Shown in pieces: positions 4,611-25,124 of a stretch of DNA of 64,000 nucleotides. Under the pieces are notes generated by a model, which did no database searches, was not told the origin of the DNA, and saw nothing but the letters and a program-made list of their open reading frames with translations. The DNA is from Chloroflexota bacterium (lineage in GTDB: Bacteria; Chloroflexota; Limnocylindria; Limnocylindrales; CSP1-4), in the NCBI GenBank assembly GCA_021783095.1, contig JAJXUG010000001.1:119570-183569 (forward strand), written 5' to 3'. A program made the position numbers and the translations under genes. Position 1 is the first letter of the stretch. Every line of letters begins with the position of its first letter.

Positions 4611-5932
4611 GCGGCCAGCCCCGTCCGGCCCTCGCCCGCCGCGTCGCGGGGCGCCTCGTCTCCCCCCTGCTCCACGAGCGGGACTTCCGGCGCTTCTGGC
4701 TCGGCCAGACCATTTCGGTGTTCGGCGACCAGGTCACCCAGCTCGGGGTCCCGCTGGTCGCGGTGCTCGTGCTGGGCGCGGACGCGACCCAGATGGGGAC
4801 CCTGCTCGCGGTGGGGCTGCTGCCGCACCTGCTGTTCTCGCTGCCGGCCGGCGTCTGGCTGGACCGGGTTCGCCATCGCCGCCGCCTGATGATCGCCGCC
4901 GACCTCGCTCGCGCGGCCTTGATCGCCAGCATCCCGGCCGCGTACGTGGCGGGCGTCCTGTCGATGGCCCAGCTCTACGTCGTCGGGTTCCTGACCGGCT
5001 CGATGGCGGTCGTGTTCGACATCTCGTGGAACACGCTGCTGGTGGCGGTGGTCCGGCGGGAGGCCTTCGTCCAGGCCAACGCGCTCTTCTCCGGCGGCCG
5101 CGCGCTCGCCTTCGTGGGCGGCCCCCCGCTGGCCGGTGTCCTGGTCCAGGTGCTCACGGCGCCGATCGCGCTGGTCGCGGACGCCCTGTCGTTCCTCGGG
5201 TCGGCGTTCTACCTCGCGCGCATCCGCGCAGCCGAGCCGCCCATCGAGATCGTGGAGGAGTCCATGCGCTCGCGGCTGTCGACCGGGCTGGTGTTCATCC
5301 TCCGCGACTCGATCATGCGCCCGATCCTGCTCTCGGTCGCGACGATCAACCTGTTCAACTTCTGCTTCCAGGCGCTCTTCATCCTGTACGTCACGGCCGG
5401 CCTCGGGGTGAGCCCGGGCGTGCTCGGCGCGGCCCTCGGCGCGGGTGCGGTCGGCGGCGTCCTCGGCGCGGTGATCGCCACCCGGGTCGGCGGCCGCCTC
5501 GGGCTGGGCGGGGCCTTCACGCTCGGCTGCGTGCTCTTCCCGGCCCCGATCATCCTCGTGCCGCTGGTCTCGGGCCCATCCGAGGCCGTCATCGCCATGC
5601 TGTTCGCGGTCGAGTTCCTGGCCGGGCTCGGCGTGCAGATCCTCGACATCAACGTGGGGGCGGTCATCGCGGCGCGGACCCCCGACGCAATCCGCTCCCG
5701 GTCCGGCGGCGCCTTCCGGTTCATCAACTACGGGATGCGGCCGGTCGGGGCGTTCCTGGGCGGGCTGCTCGGCGGGGTCATCGGAGTCCGCGAGACGCTG
5801 CTCGTCGTGACGATCGCGGCGTCCCTGGGCGTTGTGTGGCTGGTCGGGTCGCCGATCCCCGGCCTGCGCAACCTGCCCGAGGCGGCCCGGCAGGGGCCTG
5901 AGCCGGCTACCGACGCCCCGGGCTATGGCTAG
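4607..5932 (+). CDS. MFS transporter (EntS/enterobactin-exporter-like, 12 TM)
   Basis: Hydrophobic 12-helix pattern with an FRRFWLGQTISVFGDQVTQLGVPL start. It is translationally coupled to the ArsR gene through an ATGA overlap at 4607-4610. Confidence 0.8.
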   Translation: MSGQPRPALARRVAGRLVSPLLHERDFRRFWLGQTISVFGDQVTQLGVPLVAVLVLGADATQMGTLLAVGLLPHLLFSLPAGVWLDRVRHRRRLMIAADLARAALIASIPAAYVAGVLSMAQLYVVGFLTGSMAVVFDISWNTLLVAVVRREAFVQANALFSGGRALAFVGGPPLAGVLVQVLTAPIALVADALSFLGSAFYLARIRAAEPPIEIVEESMRSRLSTGLVFILRDSIMRPILLSVATINLFNFCFQALFILYVTAGLGVSPGVLGAALGAGAVGGVLGAVIATRVGGRLGLGGAFTLGCVLFPAPIILVPLVSGPSEAVIAMLFAVEFLAGLGVQILDINVGAVIAARTPDAIRSRSGGAFRFINYGMRPVGAFLGGLLGGVIGVRETLLVVTIAASLGVVWLVGSPIPGLRNLPEAARQGPEPATDAPGYG

Positions 5933-7834: not shown

Positions 7835-8212
7835 CGGGACCTCGGATGGGCGGGCGGGTCGTCGTGCTCACGATAGCGCGGGGCGTGGGTCAGGTTGGCA
7901 ACCTGCCGGAGTTGAGGCCGCCTGCGTCCTCTCCGGCCCAGGCCCGTTGACGCCGCAGCGCTCGGAACGGCCCAAGCGGAACTCGGACGACGGTCGAGGT
8001 CGTCGGAGGCGAGCGTCTCGCGTGCGGGACGCTCGCGTCTGCCGTCAGCCTGGAACTGCTCCCATCGCGCCATTGTGCAGGGCTCCCGCAGAAGCGTAGG
8101 ATGCGCCTGACCCGAACCAGCTCCTCGTACGGGGCTCGTCCGAGACCGCCAGCTTGTTCCGGCGGCCGGATGCATGAGCCCGCGATGCCCTGGGCGGGAT
8201 GGAGGTTCTTGC

Positions 8213-9313
<1,101 letters not shown>

Positions 9314-9387: not shown

Positions 9388-9999
9388 ATGACCGACCACG
9401 CTCCCGATCCCCTCCCCGCTGACGACCCGCTGGCCGAGCGCGTCGTGGCGTCCGAGGTGGTGCACCGCGGGCGCTACATGGAGTTCCGCGTCGACACGAT
9501 CGAGCGCGCGGACGGCAGCCGCAGCACGCGCGACATCGTGGGCCACCCGGGCGCCGTGGCGATCCTCGCGGTGGACGGGCTGGGCCGGGTGCTGTTCGTG
9601 CGCCAGTGGCGCGTGGCGGCCGGCCAGGGCCTGCTCGAGATCCCGGCCGGAACGCTCGACGTGCACGACGGCGTCACCGAGGACCCCGACGTCGCCGCCC
9701 GTCGCGAACTCGAGGAGGAGACCGGCCACCGAGCCGCCTCGTGGCGCAAGCTGGCATCCTTCTGGACCGCGCCCGGCTTCGCGTCCGAGAAGATGCACCT
9801 CTACCTCGCCGAGGGGCTGGTGCCGGTCGCCGACGACGACGATCGCCTCGCGCCCGACGAGGACGAGGCGCTCGAGCTGCGACACCTGTCCCTGGACGAG
9901 GCAGTCGGACTGGTGGAGACGGGGCGGATCGCCGACGCCAAGACCATCCTGGGCATCCTGTGGCTCGACCGGATGGGCCGGGGCACCGGCGTCGGCTGA
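9388..9999 (+). CDS. NUDIX hydrolase (ADP-ribose pyrophosphatase-like)
   Basis: The Nudix box is spread over GLLEIPAGTLDVHDGVTEDPDVAARRELEEETG. AGGAGG is 6 nt upstream of ATG 9388. Confidence 0.8.
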   Translation: MTDHAPDPLPADDPLAERVVASEVVHRGRYMEFRVDTIERADGSRSTRDIVGHPGAVAILAVDGLGRVLFVRQWRVAAGQGLLEIPAGTLDVHDGVTEDPDVAARRELEEETGHRAASWRKLASFWTAPGFASEKMHLYLAEGLVPVADDDDRLAPDEDEALELRHLSLDEAVGLVETGRIADAKTILGILWLDRMGRGTGVG

Positions 10000-17035: not shown

Positions 17036-18397
17036 CTAGGTGGCCCCGATCACCTGGTCCTCGTCGTCGGGGGCGCGATCGGGCCGCCGCTCCACGGTCC
17101 CCCCGGCGCGGACGATCCGCGTCGAGAAGTCGGACGAGCGGACCTGGCCGCCCACCTTCACGTTCCGGCCGAGGCGCGCGCCGCGCGGGATGATCGACTG
17201 CTTGCCGATCACGGTGATGCCGGTGTTGAGGCGGCTGGGCTCGGCCCTGTTCGGGGTGTCGAAGTCGGGCCCGTCGCCGACGATCGCGCCCTGGCCGACC
17301 GTGACCTCCTTGTCGAGGATCGCCCGGTCCACCACGGCGCCGCTGCGGACGACGGTGTCGAACATCAGGATCGAGTCTCGGACCACGGCGCCCACGTCCA
17401 CCCGGACGCCCGGCGACAGCACGCTGTTGACCACCGTGCCGTTGATGACGCAGCCGTGCGAGATGAGGCTCCGGTGCACCTGCGCCGTCGGGCCCACCTT
17501 GGCCGGCGCGCGCTCCTCGGACCGGGTGTGGATCAGCCACTCGCGGTCGTACAGGTCGAGCTCGGGGTTGTCGTCCAGCAGCGCCATGTTGGCTTCCCAG
17601 AACGTCTGGACCGTCCCCACATCCTGCCAGTAGCCGTCGAAGCGGTAGCCGAACACGCGGGCGCCGGCCTCGAGCATGGCGGGGACGACGTGGCCCCCGA
17701 AGTCGGTCCGCTCCTCGGACAGGAAGCGCCGCAGCGCGCGCTTGGAGAACACGTAGACGCCCATCGACGCGAGGTCGCTCTTGGGCTGCTTGGGCTTCTC
17801 CTGCCACTCGATGACGCGCTCCTGGTCGTCCAGGGCCAGGATGCCCATCCGGCTCGCCTCGGACAGCGGCACGCGCCGAACGGCGATCGTCACGTCCGCG
17901 CGGCGGCGGCGGTGGGCGGCGACGAACGGCGTGTAGTCCATCTTGTAGATGTGGTCGCCGGCCAGGACCAGCACGGTGTCGCCGGCATCGTGCTCGATGA
18001 CGTTGAAGTTCTGGAGCACGGCGTCGGCGGTGCCGCGGTACCACTCGGCCACGCGCCCGCGCTTCACGTACGGCTGGAGCATCTTCACGCCGCCGGTGTT
18101 GCGGTCGAGGTCCCACGGTCGCCCCAGGCCGATGTGGTCGTTGAGCGACCGGGGATTGTACTGGGTCAGCACCATGACGTGCTGGATGCCCGAGTTGACG
18201 CAGTTCGACAGGGTGAAGTCGATGATCCGGTACTTGCCGCCGAATGGCACGGCGGGCTTGGCGCGCACCGAGGACAGGATCGACAGCCGCTCGCCCTCGC
18301 CGCCAGCGAGGATGATCGCCATGACGGGTTTCGCCAACGTCGTTCCTCCGGACCTGCGGGGACCTGCCCCGATCCTAGCACCGCCCGACTTCGCCAT
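17036..18397 (-). CDS. glgC: Glucose-1-phosphate adenylyltransferase
   Basis: AIILAGGEGERL (G-rich NTP-binding loop), KPAVPFGGKYRIIDF and the C-terminal left-handed beta-helix region. Start taken at MAKSGG (18397); an alternative is the ATG about 75 nt downstream giving MAIILAGG. Confidence 0.9.
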   Translation of the reverse strand: MAKSGGARIGAGPRRSGGTTLAKPVMAIILAGGEGERLSILSSVRAKPAVPFGGKYRIIDFTLSNCVNSGIQHVMVLTQYNPRSLNDHIGLGRPWDLDRNTGGVKMLQPYVKRGRVAEWYRGTADAVLQNFNVIEHDAGDTVLVLAGDHIYKMDYTPFVAAHRRRRADVTIAVRRVPLSEASRMGILALDDQERVIEWQEKPKQPKSDLASMGVYVFSKRALRRFLSEERTDFGGHVVPAMLEAGARVFGYRFDGYWQDVGTVQTFWEANMALLDDNPELDLYDREWLIHTRSEERAPAKVGPTAQVHRSLISHGCVINGTVVNSVLSPGVRVDVGAVVRDSILMFDTVVRSGAVVDRAILDKEVTVGQGAIVGDGPDFDTPNRAEPSRLNTGITVIGKQSIIPRGARLGRNVKVGGQVRSSDFSTRIVRAGGTVERRPDRAPDDEDQVIGAT

Positions 18398-18416
18398 GTG
18401 ACCCGCGAAGTCCCTG

Positions 18417-19772
18417 CTAGGTGAACAGCTGCGGGTTAACGAACGTCCCGTTGAACTCCACCATCCAGTGGAGGTGGGCACCGGTCGAGTGGCCGGTGCT
18501 GCCCTCGTAGCCGATGACCTGCCCCCGGCTCACGTGGTCCCCCGCGCGGACCGGGTAGGTGGGCTGCATGTGGGCGTACCAGGTCACGAGCGAGGTGCTG
18601 TGGGCGATGATCACGATCCAGGCCGGGTTGGCGCCGTCGGCGTAGTTCCAGCCCACGTAGACCACGGTGCCGTCGCCGGCCGAGTGGACCGGCGTCCCGT
18701 ACGGCGCCACCAGGTCGATCCCGTTGTGGTAGTGGGCGCAGTTGCCGTAGGGCGGCTCCCAGATGAACCCGGTGCAGCCGAACGGCTGGGTGATGGACCC
18801 GGACATCGGCCATTGGAGGGTGCCGTTGTACTGGCTCGGGATGTTCCCGTGGCTCGCCTGGGCGGCGATGATCGAGTCGATCTTCCTCTGGAGCTGGGCG
18901 CGGGCCGCGCCGGCCTTGGCGAGGGCAGCACGGAGGGCCGCCTTGTTGGCCGAGACGGTCGCGTACTGCGCCTTCTGGGCCGCCAGCGCCGCCTTGGCGG
19001 CCGCCTCGAGCGCCTTGAGGCGCTTGGTGGCGGCGGCCAGGTCGGCGATCTTGCGGTCGAGGGCCTGCTTCTGGACGGCGGCCTGCTGGCCCAAAACCTC
19101 GGTCTGGTCGCGAGTCTCCGAGACCGTCTGGTGGAGCGCGAGCAGCGTCGCCTGGTCGGACGCGACCTGCGCCGCGAGCTGCTGGTCCTGCGACGCGGCG
19201 TCGAGCTGGGTCGACATCGCCGCGAGCATGTCGGTGAACGACGCGCCCGAGAGCAGGGTCTCGAGCAGCGAGGTGCGCTGGTCGTCGTAGGCCACCCGGA
19301 CGCGCTCCGCGAGCTGCGCCTGGTGCTGGCCGAGCTCCACCCGCTTGGCCGCCTCCTGCGCCTCGATCGAGGCCAGCTGTGCGTCGAGGTCCGCGAGGCT
19401 CGACATCAGGTCGTTGTACTGGCCCTGGACGGTGGCGAGGTCCTTCGTCAGGGCGGAGACCTGCTGGCGCGTGGCCGCAAGGTTCTGGGTGATGCCCGCG
19501 AGCTGCGTCGTGGTCTGGCTGATCTGGCCGGCGAGCGAGGCCTGGGACGCGTTGAGCGCCGCGATCTGCGACTTCTCCGCCGCGATCTTGGCCTCGAGCG
19601 CCTTCTTCTGCGCCTGCGCGTCCGAGAGCTGGTCCGCGAAGACGGCCGAGGGCGCGGCGACATGGCCCGCGAAGGCGCCCATCAGCAGCGGCACGATGAG
19701 CAGGGCGGTGATGGTGCGTCGCCCGATGCCACGACGGGCTCGGGGGAAGTGCTGCGCGACGGTGCGGGTCAA
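18417..19772 (-). CDS. Secreted M23 family peptidase with a long N-terminal coiled-coil (EnvC/RipA-like)
   Basis: Signal peptide (ALLIVPLLMGAFAGHVAAPSAVFA), about 280 aa of heptad-rich Ala/Gln coiled coil, then an M23 LytM domain (HNGIDLVAPYGTPVHSAGDGTV...HSTGAHLHWMVEFNG). Confidence 0.85.
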   Translation of the reverse strand: MTRTVAQHFPRARRGIGRRTITALLIVPLLMGAFAGHVAAPSAVFADQLSDAQAQKKALEAKIAAEKSQIAALNASQASLAGQISQTTTQLAGITQNLAATRQQVSALTKDLATVQGQYNDLMSSLADLDAQLASIEAQEAAKRVELGQHQAQLAERVRVAYDDQRTSLLETLLSGASFTDMLAAMSTQLDAASQDQQLAAQVASDQATLLALHQTVSETRDQTEVLGQQAAVQKQALDRKIADLAAATKRLKALEAAAKAALAAQKAQYATVSANKAALRAALAKAGAARAQLQRKIDSIIAAQASHGNIPSQYNGTLQWPMSGSITQPFGCTGFIWEPPYGNCAHYHNGIDLVAPYGTPVHSAGDGTVVYVGWNYADGANPAWIVIIAHSTSLVTWYAHMQPTYPVRAGDHVSRGQVIGYEGSTGHSTGAHLHWMVEFNGTFVNPQLFT

Positions 19773-20014
19773 CGAAGAGGCGTCCTCATCTCGTGCGAGC
19801 TGTCTCCGTCATCGTCGACGCCCCTCGGCGCCGGGGTGCTCGGCTACCACGCTCGCCGGATACGGCGCCGCCTCGGAAGGGCACGCCCGAGACGACAGTG
19901 AACCGGCGCTGCTCGGAGTGTAACAGCGGGATCAACCCGCGGCCGCGGGACGTGTCGCGGCCGCGGGACGATGGTCCCGGCATTGCAGCAGACCCAGGCA
20001 CACCGGACGCGAAG

Positions 20015-20047
20015 CGGCCCCGGGTCCGCGTGGAGCCCGGGGCCGCC
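20015..20047 (-). terminator. GC-rich hairpin (11-bp stem GCGGCCCCGGG / CCCGGGGCCGC, 11-nt loop) 16 nt downstream of the stop of the 20063-20362 gene
   Basis: Perfect inverted repeat read directly from the sequence. There is no U-tract, which is common in high-GC actinobacteria. It marks the probable end of the long minus-strand operon. Confidence 0.35.
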
Positions 20048-20062
20048 GTCGAGGTCAGGGGA

Positions 20063-20362
20063 TCAGCTGCCGGTCCAGCCGGTGCCGGCCATCCAGGCCT
20101 TCCAGACGTCCGGGTGGGCGTCGACCCACTTCTTGGCGGCGTCGTCATCGGACATCTTGTTGGAGATGTCGGTGGCGACCGCGTTCTGGTCGTCGTTGGT
20201 CCACTTGAAGTTCTTGATGAAGGCGACGGCGGGGCTGCCGCTGTTCACGAACGTGGTGGACGCGACCTTGTTGAGGTTGTACGGCGGGTAGTCGCAGGTC
20301 ATCGACTTCGAGTTGCTGTCACAAAGGGGCGTCAGGCTCGTTGTGCAGACTGCGTTTGTCAT
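20063..20362 (-). CDS. 99-aa ORF encoding only an OpuAC-type (glycine betaine-binding SBP) internal helical segment: orphan fragment, possibly a gene remnant
   Basis: ...DYPPYNLNKVASTTFVNSGSPAVAFIKNFKWTNDDQNAVATDISNKMSDDDAAKKWVDAHPDVWKAWMAGTGW matches the OpuAC block ...AAKLLSQFKWTQDEMGEIM...[27 protein letters not shown]. Codon usage is genome-typical, and the ATG overlaps the iclR stop (ATGA). Confidence 0.5.
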   Translation of the reverse strand: MTNAVCTTSLTPLCDSNSKSMTCDYPPYNLNKVASTTFVNSGSPAVAFIKNFKWTNDDQNAVATDISNKMSDDDAAKKWVDAHPDVWKAWMAGTGWTGS

Positions 20363-21168
20363 GCCGTCCCCCTCCGGTCGCGCCAGCCGAGTCGGCGCCC
20401 GATCTCGTCGCCGGCCGCCATCACGGCCGCAGCGACGGCCTCGAACCGGTCCGGGCCCAGCCGATACGTGGGTCCCGAGACGCTCACGGCGGCCACCACG
20501 GCGCCGTCGTGGCCGCGGATGGGTGCGGCGATCGCGTTGAGCCCCACCTCGAGCTCCTCGGTCGTGGAGGCCCAGCCGGACGCCGCCGCGCGGGCCAGCT
20601 CACGCTCGAGGACCGAGCGGTTGGTGATGGTCGCCGGCGTGAAGCGCTCCAGCGGCCGTGCCAGCAGCCGGGCGCGCTCCGCGGGGTCCGCGCTGGCGAG
20701 CAGCACCTTGCCGCTCGAGGTGGCGTGGAGCGGCGTTCGCTGGCCCACCCAGTTCTGCGTGGCGACGGTGGCGCCTCCGAGCACCTGGTCCACGTTGACC
20801 ACAGCGTCGCCCTCAAGCCTGGCCACGTTCACCGTCTCCCCCACCTCGGCGGCGAGGCGCCGCGACACGGACCGGCTCTGTTCCACGAGGTCGAGCCGAC
20901 CCGCGGTGGCGCCAGCGAGCCTGACCAGCCCGAAGCCGAGCCGGTAGCGGCCGCGCTCGCTGACCTGCTCCACGAGGCCGCGAGCCTCGAGGACCGCCAG
21001 CAGCCGGTGCGCGGTGCTCTTGTGGACGCCCAGGGCCGCGGCGAGGTCGGTCACCGCCCCGTCCTCGCGCTCGGCGAGGTACTCGAGCACGTCGATGGCG
21101 CGGTCGACCGACTGGATGACGGCCGGCGACCCGATGACGGCGGCCGCCCCGCTTCGGCCCTCAGCCAT
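20359..21168 (-). CDS. IclR-family transcriptional regulator
   Basis: N-terminal wHTH (SVDRAIDVLEYLAEREDGAVTDLAAALGVHKSTAHRLLAVLEARGLV) and a C-terminal IclR effector domain (GLNAIAAPIRGHDGAVVAAVSVSGP). Confidence 0.85.
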   Translation of the reverse strand: MAEGRSGAAAVIGSPAVIQSVDRAIDVLEYLAEREDGAVTDLAAALGVHKSTAHRLLAVLEARGLVEQVSERGRYRLGFGLVRLAGATAGRLDLVEQSRSVSRRLAAEVGETVNVARLEGDAVVNVDQVLGGATVATQNWVGQRTPLHATSSGKVLLASADPAERARLLARPLERFTPATITNRSVLERELARAAASGWASTTEELEVGLNAIAAPIRGHDGAVVAAVSVSGPTYRLGPDRFEAVAAAVMAAGDEIGRRLGWRDRRGTA

Positions 21169-21550
21169 CGGTGGCTCCCGCTCCCCCGTCGACGCCGGGC
21201 GACATCGCGGCGAACGCCGCCATCAGCGCGGCGCGGGTGCCGCCGAAGGCTTCGGCTGCCTCGTCCGGGCTGGGGTCGGCCCGGCCGGCGAGATCGGGCT
21301 CGGTCCACACCCAGGTCGGGTGGTCGTGCGCCGCCAGCTGGCGGAAGCGCGGCGTCCAGACCTCCGCATCGACCGCGGCCAGGTGGACGACGATCCGGAC
21401 CGGCGTCCACCCGCCATCGTGTCCCGGCGCGGTCGCCGCGTCGCCCAGCCGGTGCACCATGGCGCCCGCCCACTCCGCCGCCTCGCGCAGCGCTGGCAGG
21501 AGGGCGGCGACCTCGGCCCTGGGACCGGGCACCGCGTCGGGCATCGTCAC
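21161..21550 (-). CDS. Small hypothetical protein (about 129 aa), weakly DinB/MDMPI-N-like, translationally wedged between the MttB-family gene and iclR
   Basis: GTG at 21550 overlaps the mttB-family stop (GTGA); an alternative ATG is at 21544. Its 3' end overlaps the iclR start by 8 nt. Coding-like codon bias, no recognisable motif. Confidence 0.4.
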   Translation of the reverse strand: MTMPDAVPGPRAEVAALLPALREAAEWAGAMVHRLGDAATAPGHDGGWTPVRIVVHLAAVDAEVWTPRFRQLAAHDHPTWVWTEPDLAGRADPSPDEAAEAFGGTRAALMAAFAAMSPGVDGGAGATDG

Positions 21551-23088
21551 TCCGCCGCGTCGGGCATCGACGCCTTGCGGCGCGCGACGAAGTCCAGCAG
21601 CGCCTCGTCCACCGCGGGGTCGATGGCCGGCGCCTCGTACTCGGCGAGCATCTTCTTCCAGACCCGGTTGGCCCGCGCCCGGGCGTCAAGCTCGCCGTCC
21701 TCGAGCCACTGCTCGTAGCTGTTGTTGTCGGCGATCTCGGAACGGTAGAACGCGGTCTCGAAGTTCGCCAGGGTGTGCGCCGTGCCCAGGAAGTGCTGCC
21801 CCGGGCCGTTCTCGCGGATGGCGTCGAGCGCCTGCCCGTTCTCGGACAGGTCCACGCCCTTGGCGAACACGCTCATCATCCCGAGCTGGTCCGCGTCCAT
21901 GACGAGCTTCTCGTAGCCGATCGTCAGGCCGCCCTCGAGCCAGCCGGCGGCGTGGAGGACGAAGTTGGTGCCGGCGAGGACCGTGGGCTGGAGCGTGGCC
22001 GCGGACTCGTAGGCCGCCTGCGCGTCCTCGATCTTCGACGCGGTCAGGCTGCCGCCGGAGCGGAACGGGACGCCGAGTCGGCGGGCGAGCGCGGCCATCG
22101 TGTACAGGACGAGCGCGGGCTCCGGGGTGCCGAACGTGGGCGCACCCGACTGCATCGACATCGAGCTCGCGAAGGAGCCGAGGATCACCGGCGCCCCGGG
22201 GCGCACCAGCTGGGCGAGCGTCATGCCTCCCAGCGCCTCGGCCAGCGTCTGCGCCGCCACGCCGGCGGAGGTCACCGGCGCCATCGCGCCGGCCAGGATG
22301 AACGGGGTGACGAGGCAGGCCTGGTTCGCCGCGGCGTAGGTGCGCAGCGAGCCCAGCATCGTGGCGTCCCAGACCAGCGGCGAGTTCGCGTTGATCAGGC
22401 TGGTGACGACCGCGTTCTGGTCGACGAAGTCCGCGCCGAACACGATCTTCGCCATCTCGACGGTGTCGGCGGCGCGCTCGGGCGCCGTGACCGAGCCCAT
22501 GAACGGCTTGTCCGAGTAGCGGATGTGGGCGTAGACCATGTCGAGGTGGCGCTTGTTGACGGCCACGTCGGTGGGCTCGCACACCGTGCCACCCGAGTGG
22601 TGCAGATGCGGCGAGGCGTAGGCGAGCTTGACGAAGTTCTCGAAGTCCTGGAGCGTCGCGTAGCGTCGGCCGCCGTCGAGGTCGCGCACGAACGGCGAGC
22701 CGTAGTTGGGCGCGAAGACCGTGTTCATCCCGCCGATCGTCACGCTGCGCTCAGGGTTCCGAGCGTGCTGCACGTAGGTGCGCGGGGCGCTCGCCTGGAC
22801 GATGGAGCGGCACAGCCCGGCCGGGAACCGGACGCGCTCGCCCTGGACATCTGCGCCGGCGCCGCGCAGCAGGCGCAGCGCCTCCGGGTCGCCGCGGAAC
22901 TCGAGGCCCACCTCCTGGAGGATCACGTCGGCGTTGTGCTCGATGAGCGAGAGGCCCTCCTCGGAGAGCACCTCGAACGGCGCCATGGTCCGGGTGAGGA
23001 ACGGGAGGCGTGCCACGGCGGCATGGGCGCGGGCCGCCTGCCGCCCGGCACGACCGCCGCTGCGGCGGTTGTGGAGATCGTCGGTCAT
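21547..23088 (-). CDS. MttB-superfamily (trimethylamine-methyltransferase-like) quaternary-amine:corrinoid methyltransferase, non-pyrrolysine type (MtgB/MtcB/MtpB-like)
   Basis: 513-aa TIM-barrel MttB family. The frame is continuous with no in-frame amber codon, so it is a non-Pyl member. ATG at 23088 lies 3 nt after a perfect AGGAGG (revcomp of ttcctcctcg at 23091-23100). The 1031-aa ORF is an over-extension. Confidence 0.85.
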   Translation of the reverse strand: MTDDLHNRRSGGRAGRQAARAHAAVARLPFLTRTMAPFEVLSEEGLSLIEHNADVILQEVGLEFRGDPEALRLLRGAGADVQGERVRFPAGLCRSIVQASAPRTYVQHARNPERSVTIGGMNTVFAPNYGSPFVRDLDGGRRYATLQDFENFVKLAYASPHLHHSGGTVCEPTDVAVNKRHLDMVYAHIRYSDKPFMGSVTAPERAADTVEMAKIVFGADFVDQNAVVTSLINANSPLVWDATMLGSLRTYAAANQACLVTPFILAGAMAPVTSAGVAAQTLAEALGGMTLAQLVRPGAPVILGSFASSMSMQSGAPTFGTPEPALVLYTMAALARRLGVPFRSGGSLTASKIEDAQAAYESAATLQPTVLAGTNFVLHAAGWLEGGLTIGYEKLVMDADQLGMMSVFAKGVDLSENGQALDAIRENGPGQHFLGTAHTLANFETAFYRSEIADNNSYEQWLEDGELDARARANRVWKKMLAEYEAPAIDPAVDEALLDFVARRKASMPDAAE

Positions 23089-25124
23089 CGTTCCTCCTCG
23101 TCGGCGGCGACGGGCTGGCGCCGCCGACGTCGTTCCGTTCGCTCGTCCCAGCCCGCGCGGCCCGCCACCGGCCGTGCCGGCAATTCGACGACTCGCGCCA
23201 GGTTCGGGTATTCGGCACTGCGGTGCGGGATCGCCAGCGCGTCGACGAAGTGCTCCTGGAATCGGGGCTCGATCGCGGTCTCGAGCTTGTGGACCTCGCG
23301 CACGACGGTCTCGATCTCGCGGCGGGCGGCGCCCGACAGCAGCGCGATGAGGGCCCCGGCGCCCGCAGCGTTGCCCACCGAGCGGACGCGCGCGAGGTCG
23401 CAGTCGGGCACCAGGCCCAGCACCATGGCATGGGTCGTGTCGATGTGGCTGCCGAAAGCGCCCGCGAGGCGGACCTCGTCCACCGCGTCCACGCCGTAGG
23501 CGTCCATCAGCAGCCGGGCGCCAGCGTAGAGGGCTGCCTTCGCGAGCTGGACGGCCCGCACGTCGCTCTGGGTGACCACGACGCACGGCTCGCCCTCGTG
23601 GAGGACATAGGCGAAGGTGCGCCCGTCGGGGATCACGCGCTGCGTGCGGGCTGCCAGCGCCCCGTCGATGATCCCGTCCGCGGTGATGACGCCCGCGAGG
23701 AACAGCTCGGCGATCACCTCGATGATCCCCGAGCCGCAGATGCCGGTGATCCCGGTGCCGGCCGTGGCCTCGGCGAAGCCGGGCTCGTCGGACCACAGCG
23801 CCGAGCCGATGACGCGGAAGCGCGGCTCGAGGGTGTCGCGGTCGATGCGGACGCGCTCGACGGCGCCGGGCGCGGCGCGCTGGCCGGACGAGATCTGCGC
23901 GCCCTCGAAGGCGGGGCCGGTGGGGCTCGAGGCGGCGAGCAGGCGGTGCCGGTTGCCCAGCACGAGCTCCGCGTTGGTCCCCACGTCCACGATGAGCGTG
24001 ACGGCCTCGGCGAGGTGCGGCTGCTCGGAGAGGATGACGCCGGCCGTGTCGGCGCCGACGTGCCCGGCGATGCAGGGCAGGACGTAGACGCGGGCCCCGG
24101 GGTGGACGCCGAGCTTGAGCTCGGCGGCGGTGGCGTGGACCGCGCGCTCCGTCGCCAGCGTGAACGGCGCCTGGCCGAGCGGCGTCGGGTCGAGGCCCAG
24201 CACGAGGTGGTGCATGATCGGGTTGCCGACCAGCGCGATCTCGAGGATCTCGTCGCGCGCCACGCCGGCCGCGATGGCCAGGCTGCCGATGAGGTCGCGC
24301 AGCGCCGTCCGGACCGCGGCGGTCATCTCGGCCGCGCCCCGCTCGTGGAGCATCGCGTACGAGACGCGGCTCATCAGGTCCTCGCCGAACCTGATCTGCG
24401 GGTTCATCACGCCGGCCGAGGCCAGCACCGACCCGTCGAGCAGGCTGGCCAGGTGGGCGGCAATCGTGGTCGACCCGATGTCCACCGCCACGCCGTACGC
24501 GCGGTCGCGGAAGCCCGGCCACGCGGCGATCAGCGTCCGCCCGTCGTGGACCGCGACCGTCACCTTGCCGCCGCCGCTCTCGACCGCGGCCTGGAGCGCG
24601 CGCGTCGCCGCGAGGTCCGCACCGAGGTCGTGGATCCCCCACTCGCGGGCCAGCGCCTCCTGCACCCGGGCGAGGTCCGAGGCCGGCGAAGCCAGGTCCG
24701 GCAGGGCGGCCTCGACGTAGTGGAGCCGGGTGACCGGGTCGAGGTCGAACGGGCGGACCTCGAGCTCCTTGCGCACCACCTGGCGGTGGACCTGGGAGCT
24801 GGCCGGCACGTCGATGACCGCGTCGCCCAGCAGCTCGGCCGTGCAGGCGAGCCGGCGCCTGGGCGCCAGGCCCTTGCGCGCCGCGTAGTCGGCCTCCACC
24901 GCGTCGGGCGCCGAGATGTGCGCCGGATCCGAGGCGATGCCGTGCTTGGGGAACGCGCCGACGCTCTGCTCCACCTGGCAGCGGCCGCAGATGCCCCGGC
25001 CGCCGCAGACCGAATCGATGTCCACGCCCAGCTTCCGGGCCGCGTCGAGCACGGTCGTGCCCGCGGGGAAGTGCCCCCGGCGGCCCGAGGGCGTGAAGAT
25101 CAGCAGGGGATCGGGCGATCCCAC
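23085..25124 (-). CDS. Corrinoid reductive activase (RACo-type: N-terminal plant-type [2Fe-2S] ferredoxin plus ASKHA ATPase/DUF4445)
   Basis: CGGRGICGRCQV...C ferredoxin cysteine pattern at the N-terminus. Large ASKHA-fold C-terminal domain with VDIGSTTIAAHL and VDVGTNAELVLG phosphate loops. Its stop overlaps the MttB start (ATGA at 23085-23088). Confidence 0.85.
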   Translation of the reverse strand: MGSPDPLLIFTPSGRRGHFPAGTTVLDAARKLGVDIDSVCGGRGICGRCQVEQSVGAFPKHGIASDPAHISAPDAVEADYAARKGLAPRRRLACTAELLGDAVIDVPASSQVHRQVVRKELEVRPFDLDPVTRLHYVEAALPDLASPASDLARVQEALAREWGIHDLGADLAATRALQAAVESGGGKVTVAVHDGRTLIAAWPGFRDRAYGVAVDIGSTTIAAHLASLLDGSVLASAGVMNPQIRFGEDLMSRVSYAMLHERGAAEMTAAVRTALRDLIGSLAIAAGVARDEILEIALVGNPIMHHLVLGLDPTPLGQAPFTLATERAVHATAAELKLGVHPGARVYVLPCIAGHVGADTAGVILSEQPHLAEAVTLIVDVGTNAELVLGNRHRLLAASSPTGPAFEGAQISSGQRAAPGAVERVRIDRDTLEPRFRVIGSALWSDEPGFAEATAGTGITGICGSGIIEVIAELFLAGVITADGIIDGALAARTQRVIPDGRTFAYVLHEGEPCVVVTQSDVRAVQLAKAALYAGARLLMDAYGVDAVDEVRLAGAFGSHIDTTHAMVLGLVPDCDLARVRSVGNAAGAGALIALLSGAARREIETVVREVHKLETAIEPRFQEHFVDALAIPHRSAEYPNLARVVELPARPVAGRAGWDERTERRRRRQPVAADEEER

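What the first reader, a model, noticed from the sequence alone, without database searches (positions are those of the whole stretch)
20063..20362. Orphan 99-aa gene encoding only an OpuAC-type betaine-binding-protein segment, translationally coupled to iclR at the tail of the corrinoid methyltransferase operon
The ORF has genome-typical codon usage, and its ATG overlaps the iclR stop (ATGA). It reproduces the OpuAC helical block (…FIKNFKWTNDDQNAV…DDDAAKKWVDAHPDVWKAWMAGTGW versus B. subtilis …LSQFKWTQDEMGEIM…[23 protein letters not shown]). It lacks both flanking lobes, a signal peptide and any transporter partners.

It is either the remnant of a glycine betaine uptake SBP that once sat here, which would be a fossil supporting betaine as the operon substrate, or a retained mini-domain with a new role such as a sensor or chaperone. 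The Cys-rich N-terminus (C6, C14, C23) is unusual for OpuAC. A GC-rich hairpin (20015-20047) follows it.
Basis: partly seen in the sequence, partly recalled or inferred. Interest (0 to 1): 0.6.

Follow-up and report, generated by a model that had tools for sequence, protein, structure and literature searches.

The report
Leftover tail of a deleted betaine-transporter gene
The 99-codon reading frame is what remains after a 4.2-kb deletion removed a betaine-type ABC importer that sister genomes still carry here, so it is an ordinary, recent gene remnant rather than a new mini-protein.

Summary
There is a 99-aa ORF at 20063-20362(-) whose ATG overlaps the iclR stop (ATGA). It matches Pfam OpuAC above the gathering score, but only the last ~60 profile positions. 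A GC-rich hairpin follows it.

Three increasingly distant sister genomes (flanking M23 peptidase 96%, 86% and 81% identical) settle what it is. At the same place they carry MttB, DinB-like, IclR, a ProV-type ATPase, a fused ProW-type permease, a full-length lipoprotein OpuAC, then the M23 peptidase.

The window has lost 4,183 bp between two copies of CGACAGC. One copy lies in the iclR-opuAA spacer and the other inside opuAC.
- Codons 1-13 of the ORF are former spacer (GC3 0.64 over codons 1-14).
- Codons 14-99 are the last 86 codons of opuAC (GC3 0.99 over codons 15-99) and are 100% identical in protein to the nearest relative.
- C14 and C23 are the subfamily's conserved Cys pair, not an oddity.
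- The hairpin is the inherited opuAC 3' hairpin.

No stand-alone homologue exists. All four short relatives checked on long contigs are frameshift-split full-length genes.

Verdict: a young deletion remnant. Interest is low.

The parts
20063..20362 (-). Chimeric 99-codon ORF created by the deletion: 13 ex-spacer codons, then 86 opuAC codons, then the stop
20324..20362 (-). Codons 1-13 (MTNAVCTTSLTPL), formerly the iclR-opuAA intergenic spacer. In L086 the same ATG opens a 17-codon ORF ending at a TAA that is deleted here.
   Evidence: Collinear with L086 5179-5217 (4 differences in the 35 nt after the iclR stop). GC3 0.64 over codons 1-14.
20330..20352 (-). Conserved spacer motif CAGTCTGCACAACGAGCCTGACG. 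It lies upstream of opuAA in L086, L088 and L090 and now forms codons 4-11. Its role is unknown; it may be an operator or promoter element.
   Evidence: Alignment of the spacers. The sigma-70 consensus scan found nothing.
20315..20321 (-). Deletion junction, TGACAGC. In L086, CGACAGC occurs at both endpoints (5220-5226 in the spacer and 9403-9409 in opuAC), 4,183 bp apart.
20066..20323 (-). Last 86 codons of opuAC (C14-S99), 100% identical in protein to residues 287-372 of the 372-aa L086 OpuAC. There are 5 synonymous and 0 non-synonymous differences.
20014..20046 (-). GC-rich hairpin with no T-run, inherited from the opuAC 3' end. It is now the first strong hairpin after iclR.
   Evidence: Fold. 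The first 60 nt after the stop are 98% identical to L086. The hairpin is conserved in L086, L088 and L090. Not called as a canonical terminator.
20359..21168 (-). iclR-family regulator, 269 aa and intact, forming the left flank of the deletion. Its C-terminal tail is native, because the L086 tail is identical.
21161..21550 (-). DinB-like gene with an in-frame loss of about 44 codons relative to L086 and L088. This is a second lesion in the same locus.
21547..23088 (-). MttB-superfamily methyltransferase of the corrinoid operon. It is intact, with dN/dS 0.09 against L086.
18417..19772 (-). M23 peptidase gene, forming the right flank. It was the anchor used to find the intact relatives.

Best explanation
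The ORF is a pseudogene remnant. The ancestor of this Limnocylindrales-like genome carried a ProU/OpuA-type quaternary-amine ABC importer directly downstream of the corrinoid methyltransferase operon and its iclR regulator. The importer consisted of a ProV-like ATPase, a fused double ProW-like permease and a lipoprotein OpuAC-family binding protein.

A single 4,183-bp deletion between two 7-bp CGACAGC repeats removed four things: the distal part of the iclR-opuAA spacer, all of opuAA, all of opuAB, and the first 286 codons of opuAC. One repeat lay in the spacer and the other inside opuAC.

By chance the join is in frame with an ATG that already overlapped the iclR stop codon. The result is an open frame of 13 ex-spacer codons plus the last 86 opuAC codons.

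Shown: the synteny, the breakpoints, the chimeric origin and the absence of stand-alone relatives.

Inferred:
- The deletion arose by microhomology-mediated illegitimate recombination or replication slippage.
- Any product would be a cytoplasmic polypeptide with no signal peptide, no complete lobe and none of the N-terminal ligand-cage tryptophans, and so would not function in transport.
- The DNA persists only because the deletion is young.
- The inherited hairpin may now end the iclR transcript.
For: 1. Loci L086/L087, L088/L089 and L090 (M23 peptidase 96%, 86% and 81% identical) all read RACo, MttB, (DinB_2), IclR, ABC_tran 365 aa, BPD_transp_1 ~650 aa, OpuAC 300-372 aa, M23, glgC.
2. blastn gives two collinear blocks: window 21217..20315 = L086 4324..5226, and window 20323..18300 = L086 9401..11473. 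They abut at CGACAGC / TGACAGC.
3. Window residues 14-99 are identical to L086 OpuAC residues 287-372.
4. GC3 is 0.64 in codons 1-14 and 0.99 in codons 15-99.
5. No N-terminal SBP remnant lies anywhere in the window.
6. The deleted genes hit TIGR01186 and TIGR03416 above their cut-offs.
7. The deletion is present in five independent assemblies of the species at 99.5-99.9% identity.
8. The exact protein has no relative between 100% and ~70% identity.
9. Short homologues P0017, P0022, P0043 and P0010 are frameshift-split full-length genes.
10. The hairpin is inherited.
11. Zero non-synonymous changes is compatible with neutrality if the divergence since the deletion is <= 0.0145 per site, while within-species divergence is <= 0.5%.
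Against: - The remnant shows no decay. It has no stop codon or frameshift, and 0 non-synonymous against 5 synonymous differences from L086, of which 2-3 fall on the window's branch. Taken alone, this would also fit purifying selection.
- A good Shine-Dalgarno-like GGAGG lies 8 nt upstream of the ATG, so translation is possible.
- Expression was not tested.
Confidence: 0.95

Rival explanations
1. Retained mini-domain. The C-terminal OpuAC segment is expressed from the ATGA overlap with iclR and has acquired a new cytoplasmic role, such as a sensor, a chaperone or a partner of IclR or the methyltransferase system.
For: - The frame is open.
- A GGAGG lies 8 nt before the ATG, which overlaps the iclR stop.
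- There is no non-synonymous change against L086.
- All family-conserved residues of the segment are kept.
Against: - The ATG and the SD-like sequence predate the deletion. In L086 they precede only a 17-codon spacer ORF. L088 has GTGA at that position, and L090's iclR ends elsewhere.
- The N-terminal 13 residues are ex-spacer sequence with atypical codons.
- The ORF is confined to one near-clonal species cluster.
- No stand-alone family exists.
- The segment is about a quarter of a two-lobe fold. It lies beyond ProX profile position 247, whereas the cage tryptophans of E. coli ProX lie before about precursor residue 210 (plus my own knowledge of ProX).
- The lack of non-synonymous change is expected for a young neutral remnant.
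Confidence: 0.03
2. The window shows the ancestral state, and the relatives gained the transporter by insertion.
For: L007, a more distant relative (MttB 85%, IclR 73%), has no transporter after iclR.
Against: - The window holds an in-register 3' end of opuAC, identical in protein to L086, with its native hairpin. An insertion into the relatives could not leave that here.
- Three successively more distant genomes that share the M23-glgC flank all have the transporter.
- L007 lacks the whole M23-glgC flank as well, so its arrangement is simply a different one.
Confidence: 0.01
3. Assembly artefact. The deletion is a mis-join of short reads at the CGACAGC repeat.
For: The endpoints share a short repeat.
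Against: - A 7-bp repeat is far shorter than the assembly k-mers.
- The same junction is present in the window and in four independent assemblies from different samples: ERZ27236853, ERZ27236847, ERZ27236866 and GCA_021779175.1.
Confidence: 0.01

Closest known systems
OpuAC / ProX-family substrate-binding proteins of ProU/OpuA-type betaine, proline and choline ABC importers (Pfam PF04069). The closest solved relative of the intact orthologue is PDB 4xz6.
   Same: - Residues 14-99 are homologous to the C-terminal ~86 residues of these proteins, including the subfamily's Cys pair and the FxWTNDDQN and AAKKWVDAHPD motifs.
- The intact orthologue in L086 is a 372-aa lipoprotein-type SBP encoded after ProV-like and ProW-like genes.
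   Different: - Only about a quarter of the protein is left.
- It has no signal peptide or lipobox, no N-terminal lobe and no transporter partners in the window.
- The first 13 residues are not SBP sequence at all.
Bacterial gene remnants left by short-repeat (microhomology) deletions
   Same: - There is a single clean deletion between 7-bp direct repeats.
- Both flanks are collinear with relatives.
- An accidental in-frame ORF spans the junction.
   Different: Nothing unusual. It is notable only for being very young, with no decay yet, and for removing the importer while the catabolic operon next to it stays under purifying selection (dN/dS 0.09-0.16).
MtgBCD-type cobalamin-dependent glycine betaine demethylation clusters (Desulfitobacterium MtgB; aerobic marine bacteria, PMC12478193)
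   Same: The surrounding operon encodes an MttB-superfamily methyltransferase, a corrinoid protein, a pterin-binding methyltransferase and a RACo-type reactivase. A DAO-FAO_M-GCV_T (dimethylglycine-oxidase-like) gene lies nearby. The paper reports the same kind of co-location.
   Different: - The substrate of this MttB homologue has not been tested.
- It scores well below the cut-off of the trimethylamine (pyrrolysine) equivalog model (269 against 525 bits).
- The linked importer is of the ABC type, whereas the R. pomeroyi study reports a BCCT-type OpuD.

Membership tests
OpuAC/ProX-family substrate-binding protein (PF04069) | Significant match to the family profile | tested here: met
   32.0 bits against a gathering score of 21.2, but only profile positions 198-256 of 257. 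NCBIfam choline SBP 211-274/291 and ProX 247-324/331, both far below their whole-protein cut-offs.
OpuAC/ProX-family substrate-binding protein (PF04069) | Complete two-lobe binding domain of about 260-300 residues | tested here: not met
   Only the last 86 residues of a 372-aa orthologue are present. No other SBP-like sequence lies in any frame of the window.
OpuAC/ProX-family substrate-binding protein (PF04069) | Export signal (signal peptide or lipobox) | tested here: not met
   The L086 orthologue starts with ...AAVLSILVSAC.... The window's ORF starts MTNAVCTTSLTPL, which is encoded by ex-spacer DNA.
OpuAC/ProX-family substrate-binding protein (PF04069) | Aromatic ligand cage | tested here: inconclusive
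   The retained part begins at ProX profile position 247. From my own knowledge, the cage tryptophans of E. coli ProX (W65, W140 and W188 of the mature protein) lie N-terminal of that. No structure-based mapping was done for this subfamily.
OpuAC/ProX-family substrate-binding protein (PF04069) | Encoded with ABC permease and ATPase partners | tested here: not met
   There are none in the window. They are present in the orthologous loci L086, L088 and L090.
Deletion remnant (pseudogene fragment) | Full-length orthologue at the syntenic position in close relatives | tested here: met
   L086/L087, L088/L089 and L090.
Deletion remnant (pseudogene fragment) | Definable breakpoints with both flanks collinear | tested here: met
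   4,183 bp missing between CGACAGC repeats.
Deletion remnant (pseudogene fragment) | Relaxed selection or decay in the remnant | tested here: inconclusive
   0 non-synonymous and 5 synonymous differences against L086, of which 2-3 are on the window's branch. There are too few changes. The result is compatible with a neutral remnant younger than ~0.0145 substitutions per site.
Functional stand-alone small protein | Conserved as a short ORF across species | tested here: not met
   The exact ORF occurs only in one species cluster, and the next relative is at 68-71% identity. Four short homologues on long contigs are frameshift-split full-length genes.
Functional stand-alone small protein | Evidence of translation and a stable product | not testable with these tools
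   Needs metatranscriptomics, proteomics or ribosome profiling.
Intrinsic (Rho-independent) terminator | GC-rich hairpin followed by a T-run | tested here: not met
   The hairpin is present, but the tail is TTCGCGTCC and the scan calls nothing. Hairpins without T-runs are common in high-GC genomes (my own knowledge), so function is neither shown nor excluded.

The most novel reading that the evidence does not exclude
The accidental fusion is translated, using the pre-existing GGAGG and the ATG that overlaps the iclR stop. The resulting cytoplasmic 99-aa polypeptide, an SBP C-terminal segment with a new 13-residue head, has been co-opted. It could, for example, bind the quaternary-amine substrate weakly or interact with IclR. 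That would be a caught-in-the-act case of a new gene born from a deletion scar.
Probability: 0.03. Interest if true: 0.5.

Novelty: already known. Interest (0 to 1): 0.12.

Why it matters
As a feature it is ordinary: a fresh gene remnant, best annotated as a pseudogene fragment rather than an orphan gene.

It has three modest points of value:
- It confirms that in this Limnocylindrales lineage a ProU/OpuA-type quaternary-amine importer belongs to the MttB/corrinoid demethylation locus. This supports a betaine-like substrate for the operon. OpuAC-type SBP genes, many of them full-length, also lie within 10 kb of the orthologous MttB in 13 of the 80 loci fetched from the species-representative genomes, mostly actinobacterial MAGs.
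- It documents two sister populations, about 92% identical in DNA at this locus, one with the importer and one without. The catabolic genes remain under purifying selection in both. This is a natural knock-out that could be used to ask how the substrate enters the cell.
- It is a caution for database searches. Short 'OpuAC' proteins are mostly contig-end or frameshift fragments.

Tried and rejected
- **Short hits in the word-indexed search.** All 66 hits were 56-172 aa, which at first suggested a family of mini-OpuAC proteins. I rejected this. The alignment showed that the longer ones run into ordinary SBP sequence. The exhaustive search recovered full-length SBPs. P0017, P0022, P0043 and P0010 each have the missing N-terminal part just upstream in another frame.
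- **P0017 as an orthologue.** It shares the one-residue gap in 'DIS-NKM', but its genomic context is unrelated and it is frameshifted.
- **First synteny attempt through MttB.** The genome-contig scan gave L007 as the closest locus. It has no SBP after iclR and a different downstream neighbourhood, so the result was negative or misleading. Switching the anchor to the downstream M23 peptidase gene found the informative relatives.
- **dN/dS as a test of function.** It was computed, but with only 5 differences it has no power to separate 'young neutral' from 'selected'.
- **Spacer motif as the opuA promoter.** I considered that CTGACG, an 18-nt gap and TAATCT form a promoter whose -10 box was deleted. 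The consensus scan found no sigma-70-like site, so this remains a guess.
- **Canonical terminator call for the hairpin.** Not supported, because there is no T-run.
- **Structure prediction of the isolated fragment.** Not run. With an alignment drawn from full-length SBPs it would reproduce the local helices and could not discriminate between the hypotheses.

Full report
**What is at the coordinates**

The minus strand of 20063..20362 carries a 99-codon ORF. Its ATG overlaps the TGA of the upstream iclR-family gene (20359..21168) as ATGA.

The product matches Pfam OpuAC (PF04069) at 32.0 bits against a gathering score of 21.2. Only residues 25-81 match, on profile positions 198-256 of 257. NCBIfam places it at positions 211-274/291 of the choline SBP model and 247-324/331 of ProX.

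An exhaustive phmmer search of 1.84 billion representatives gave 253 hits at E <= 1e-3. Full-length binding proteins of 308-332 aa (P0068, P0071, P0086, P0099) align with ORF residues 9-92 only through their last ~85 residues.

tblastn of those full-length proteins against the whole window found nothing but 20084-20338. There is no N-terminal remnant in any frame and no paralogue.

**Corrections to the description**

An alignment of homologues shows that C14 and C23 fall in the conserved motif GCDxD..KVACDYPPY of this SBP subfamily. They are therefore not an unusual feature.

GC3 is 0.99 for codons 15-99, which is typical of this genome (neighbouring genes 0.91-0.98). For codons 1-14 it is only 0.64.

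The hairpin is real: stem 20046-20036 / 20024-20014, -42 kcal/mol for the 76-nt stretch, z = -3.3. It has no T-run and is not called by the terminator scan.

**Context**

The exact protein occurs only in four further contigs, which are 99.5-99.9% identical to the window (L001-L004, including GCA_021779175.1). All show the same gene order:
- a divergent DAO-FAO_M-GCV_T gene
- GntR
- a corrinoid protein
- DUF1638
- a pterin-binding methyltransferase
- RACo
- MttB
- a DinB-like ORF
- IclR
- the 99-aa ORF
- an M23 peptidase
- glgC

A scan of species-representative genomes with MttB places the organism among Limnocylindrales-like Chloroflexota.

The closest locus found that way, L007 (MttB 85%, IclR 73%), has no SBP after iclR and an unrelated downstream neighbourhood. 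This showed that the ORF lies at a synteny boundary, but it did not explain the ORF.

**The decisive comparison**

Searching with the downstream M23 peptidase gave a graded series of orthologues. Their contigs are L086/L087 (96% aa; GCA_021786915.1), L088/L089 (86%; GCA_027327805.1) and L090 (81%; JGI 3300046490).

All of them read: pterin MT, RACo, MttB, (DinB_2), IclR, ABC_tran (365 aa), BPD_transp_1 (~650 aa), OpuAC (300-372 aa), M23 peptidase, glgC.

NCBIfam names the three extra genes:
- a betaine/proline/choline-family ABC ATPase (TIGR01186, 357 bits against a cut-off of 326.6)
- a duplicated choline/ProW-type permease (TIGR03416, 391.6 bits against 363, two stretches)
- an OpuAC-family SBP

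**Anatomy of the deletion**

blastn of the window against L086 gives two collinear blocks:
- window 21217..20315 = L086 4324..5226, which is iclR plus the first 44 nt of the iclR-opuAA spacer
- window 20323..18300 = L086 9401..11473, which is the 3' end of opuAC, the intergenic region and M23

At nucleotide resolution, L086 has CGACAGC at both endpoints (5220-5226 and 9403-9409), 4,183 bp apart. The window has a single TGACAGC at 20321-20315.

In L086, the ATG that overlaps the iclR stop opens only a 17-codon frame (MTRAVCTTSLTHLADSA*). Its TAA lies in the deleted part. The deletion joined that frame, by chance in register, to codon 287 of opuAC.

So codons 1-13 of the window's ORF are former spacer DNA, which explains their codon usage. 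Codons 14-99 are the last 86 codons of opuAC, and they are 100% identical in protein to L086 OpuAC 287-372.

The full-length L086 protein begins with a lipoprotein-type signal (...LSILVSAC...) and an Ala/Pro/Ser-rich linker. The remnant lacks both.

The first 60 nt after the stop, including the hairpin, are 98% identical to L086. The hairpin is conserved in L088 and L090 as well, so it is the inherited 3' hairpin of opuAC.

**Is it still under selection?**

Between the window and L086 the remnant has 5 synonymous and 0 non-synonymous differences. Polarising with L088 and L090 puts 2-3 of them on the window's branch.

Neighbouring intact genes have dS 0.11-0.24 and dN/dS 0.09-0.17.

Zero changes at 207 non-synonymous sites is compatible, at P >= 0.05, with strict neutrality, provided that no more than 0.0145 substitutions per site have accumulated since the deletion. 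The five assemblies carrying the deletion differ by at most 0.5%. A young neutral remnant therefore explains the data without invoking function. The test has little power and is reported as inconclusive.

**No stand-alone family**

The word-indexed search returned only short proteins, but these are fragments:
- P0017 (L005) is a full-length SBP gene split by a frameshift.
- P0022 (L091), P0043 (L092) and P0010 (L093) are too.
- In L092 and L093 the split gene directly follows opuAA and opuAB homologues.

The ATGA overlap is not conserved either. L088 has GTGA, and L090's iclR ends elsewhere.

**Mechanism and consequences**

Shown:
- The ORF is the scar of a 4.18-kb deletion that removed the importer.
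- The corrinoid operon and iclR remain intact and constrained.

Inferred:
- The deletion arose by illegitimate recombination or slippage between the 7-bp repeats.
- Transcription of the remnant, if any, is read-through from iclR and ends at the inherited hairpin.
- Any product would be a non-exported quarter of a two-lobe protein, lacking the N-terminal region where the ligand-cage tryptophans of ProX-type proteins lie. That last point rests on my own knowledge of E. coli ProX combined with the profile coordinates.

**The 'betaine' inference**

The linked importer belongs to the betaine/proline/choline family. OpuAC-type SBP genes, many of them full-length, lie within 10 kb of the orthologous MttB in 13 of the 80 loci fetched from the species-representative genomes, mostly actinobacterial MAGs.

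MtgBCD-type, cobalamin-dependent glycine betaine demethylation in aerobes, often co-located with the downstream demethylation genes, is described in PMC12478193.

The substrate of this particular MttB homologue remains untested. The closest solved relative of the intact SBP is 4xz6. I recall that entry as the TMAO-binding TmoX of Ruegeria pomeroyi, but that is memory, not something checked here. Other methylated amines cannot be excluded.

**Verdict**

This is an ordinary, recent pseudogene fragment.

Noticed in passing
window 21161-21550 (-), gap at about 21203-21217: The DinB-like gene between mttB and iclR has an in-frame loss of about 44 codons relative to L086 (173 aa) and L088 (174 aa). 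The lost part includes a ...LRHDAEHLASL... segment. This is a second deletion in the same locus of the same lineage. L090 and L007 lack the gene altogether.
   Followed up: partly
window 20330-20352 (-); L086 5189-5211; also in L088 and L090 upstream of opuAA: A 23-nt motif, CAGyCTGCACAACssGyCTsACG, is conserved in the spacer upstream of opuAA in all three intact relatives. In L090 it lies roughly 290 nt after iclR. It survives in the window as codons 4-11 of the ORF. It may be an operator or promoter element of the lost transporter genes, but the sigma-70 consensus scan found nothing.
   Followed up: partly
window 17984-18414 compared with L004: Of the 33 differences (32 mismatches and one 1-nt indel) between the window and L004 (GCA_021779175.1), 27 cluster in about 430 bp spanning the M23-glgC intergenic region and the 5' end of glgC. 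This looks like a short recombination tract in an otherwise 99.9% identical background.
   Followed up: no
window 18417-25124 compared with L086: Synonymous divergence from L086 is about twice as high to the left of the deletion junction (RACo, mttB and iclR, dS 0.20-0.24) as to the right (opuAC remnant and M23, dS 0.10-0.11; glgC 0.16). The two flanks may have different recombination histories.
   Followed up: no
L005, L091, L092, L093 (contigs from ERZ25039562, ERZ25039499 and JGI 3300033168): Many short 'OpuAC' proteins in the public protein collection are pieces of full-length SBP genes split by frameshifts. In L092 nearly every gene in the locus is fragmented, which suggests indel errors in long-read assemblies. 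This inflates the apparent number of mini-SBP ORFs.
   Followed up: yes
L005 and L091: In two unrelated contigs the (frameshifted) SBP gene of this subfamily follows a conservon-like cluster (sensor kinase, Robl_LC7, DUF742, ATP_bind_1) rather than ABC transporter genes.
   Followed up: no
window 8204-8914 (+): An ABC ATPase 35% identical to the L086 ProV-like protein. This is a generic level of similarity, and it is not a replacement for the lost OpuA system on present evidence. The rest of the window was not screened for BCCT-type betaine carriers.
   Followed up: no
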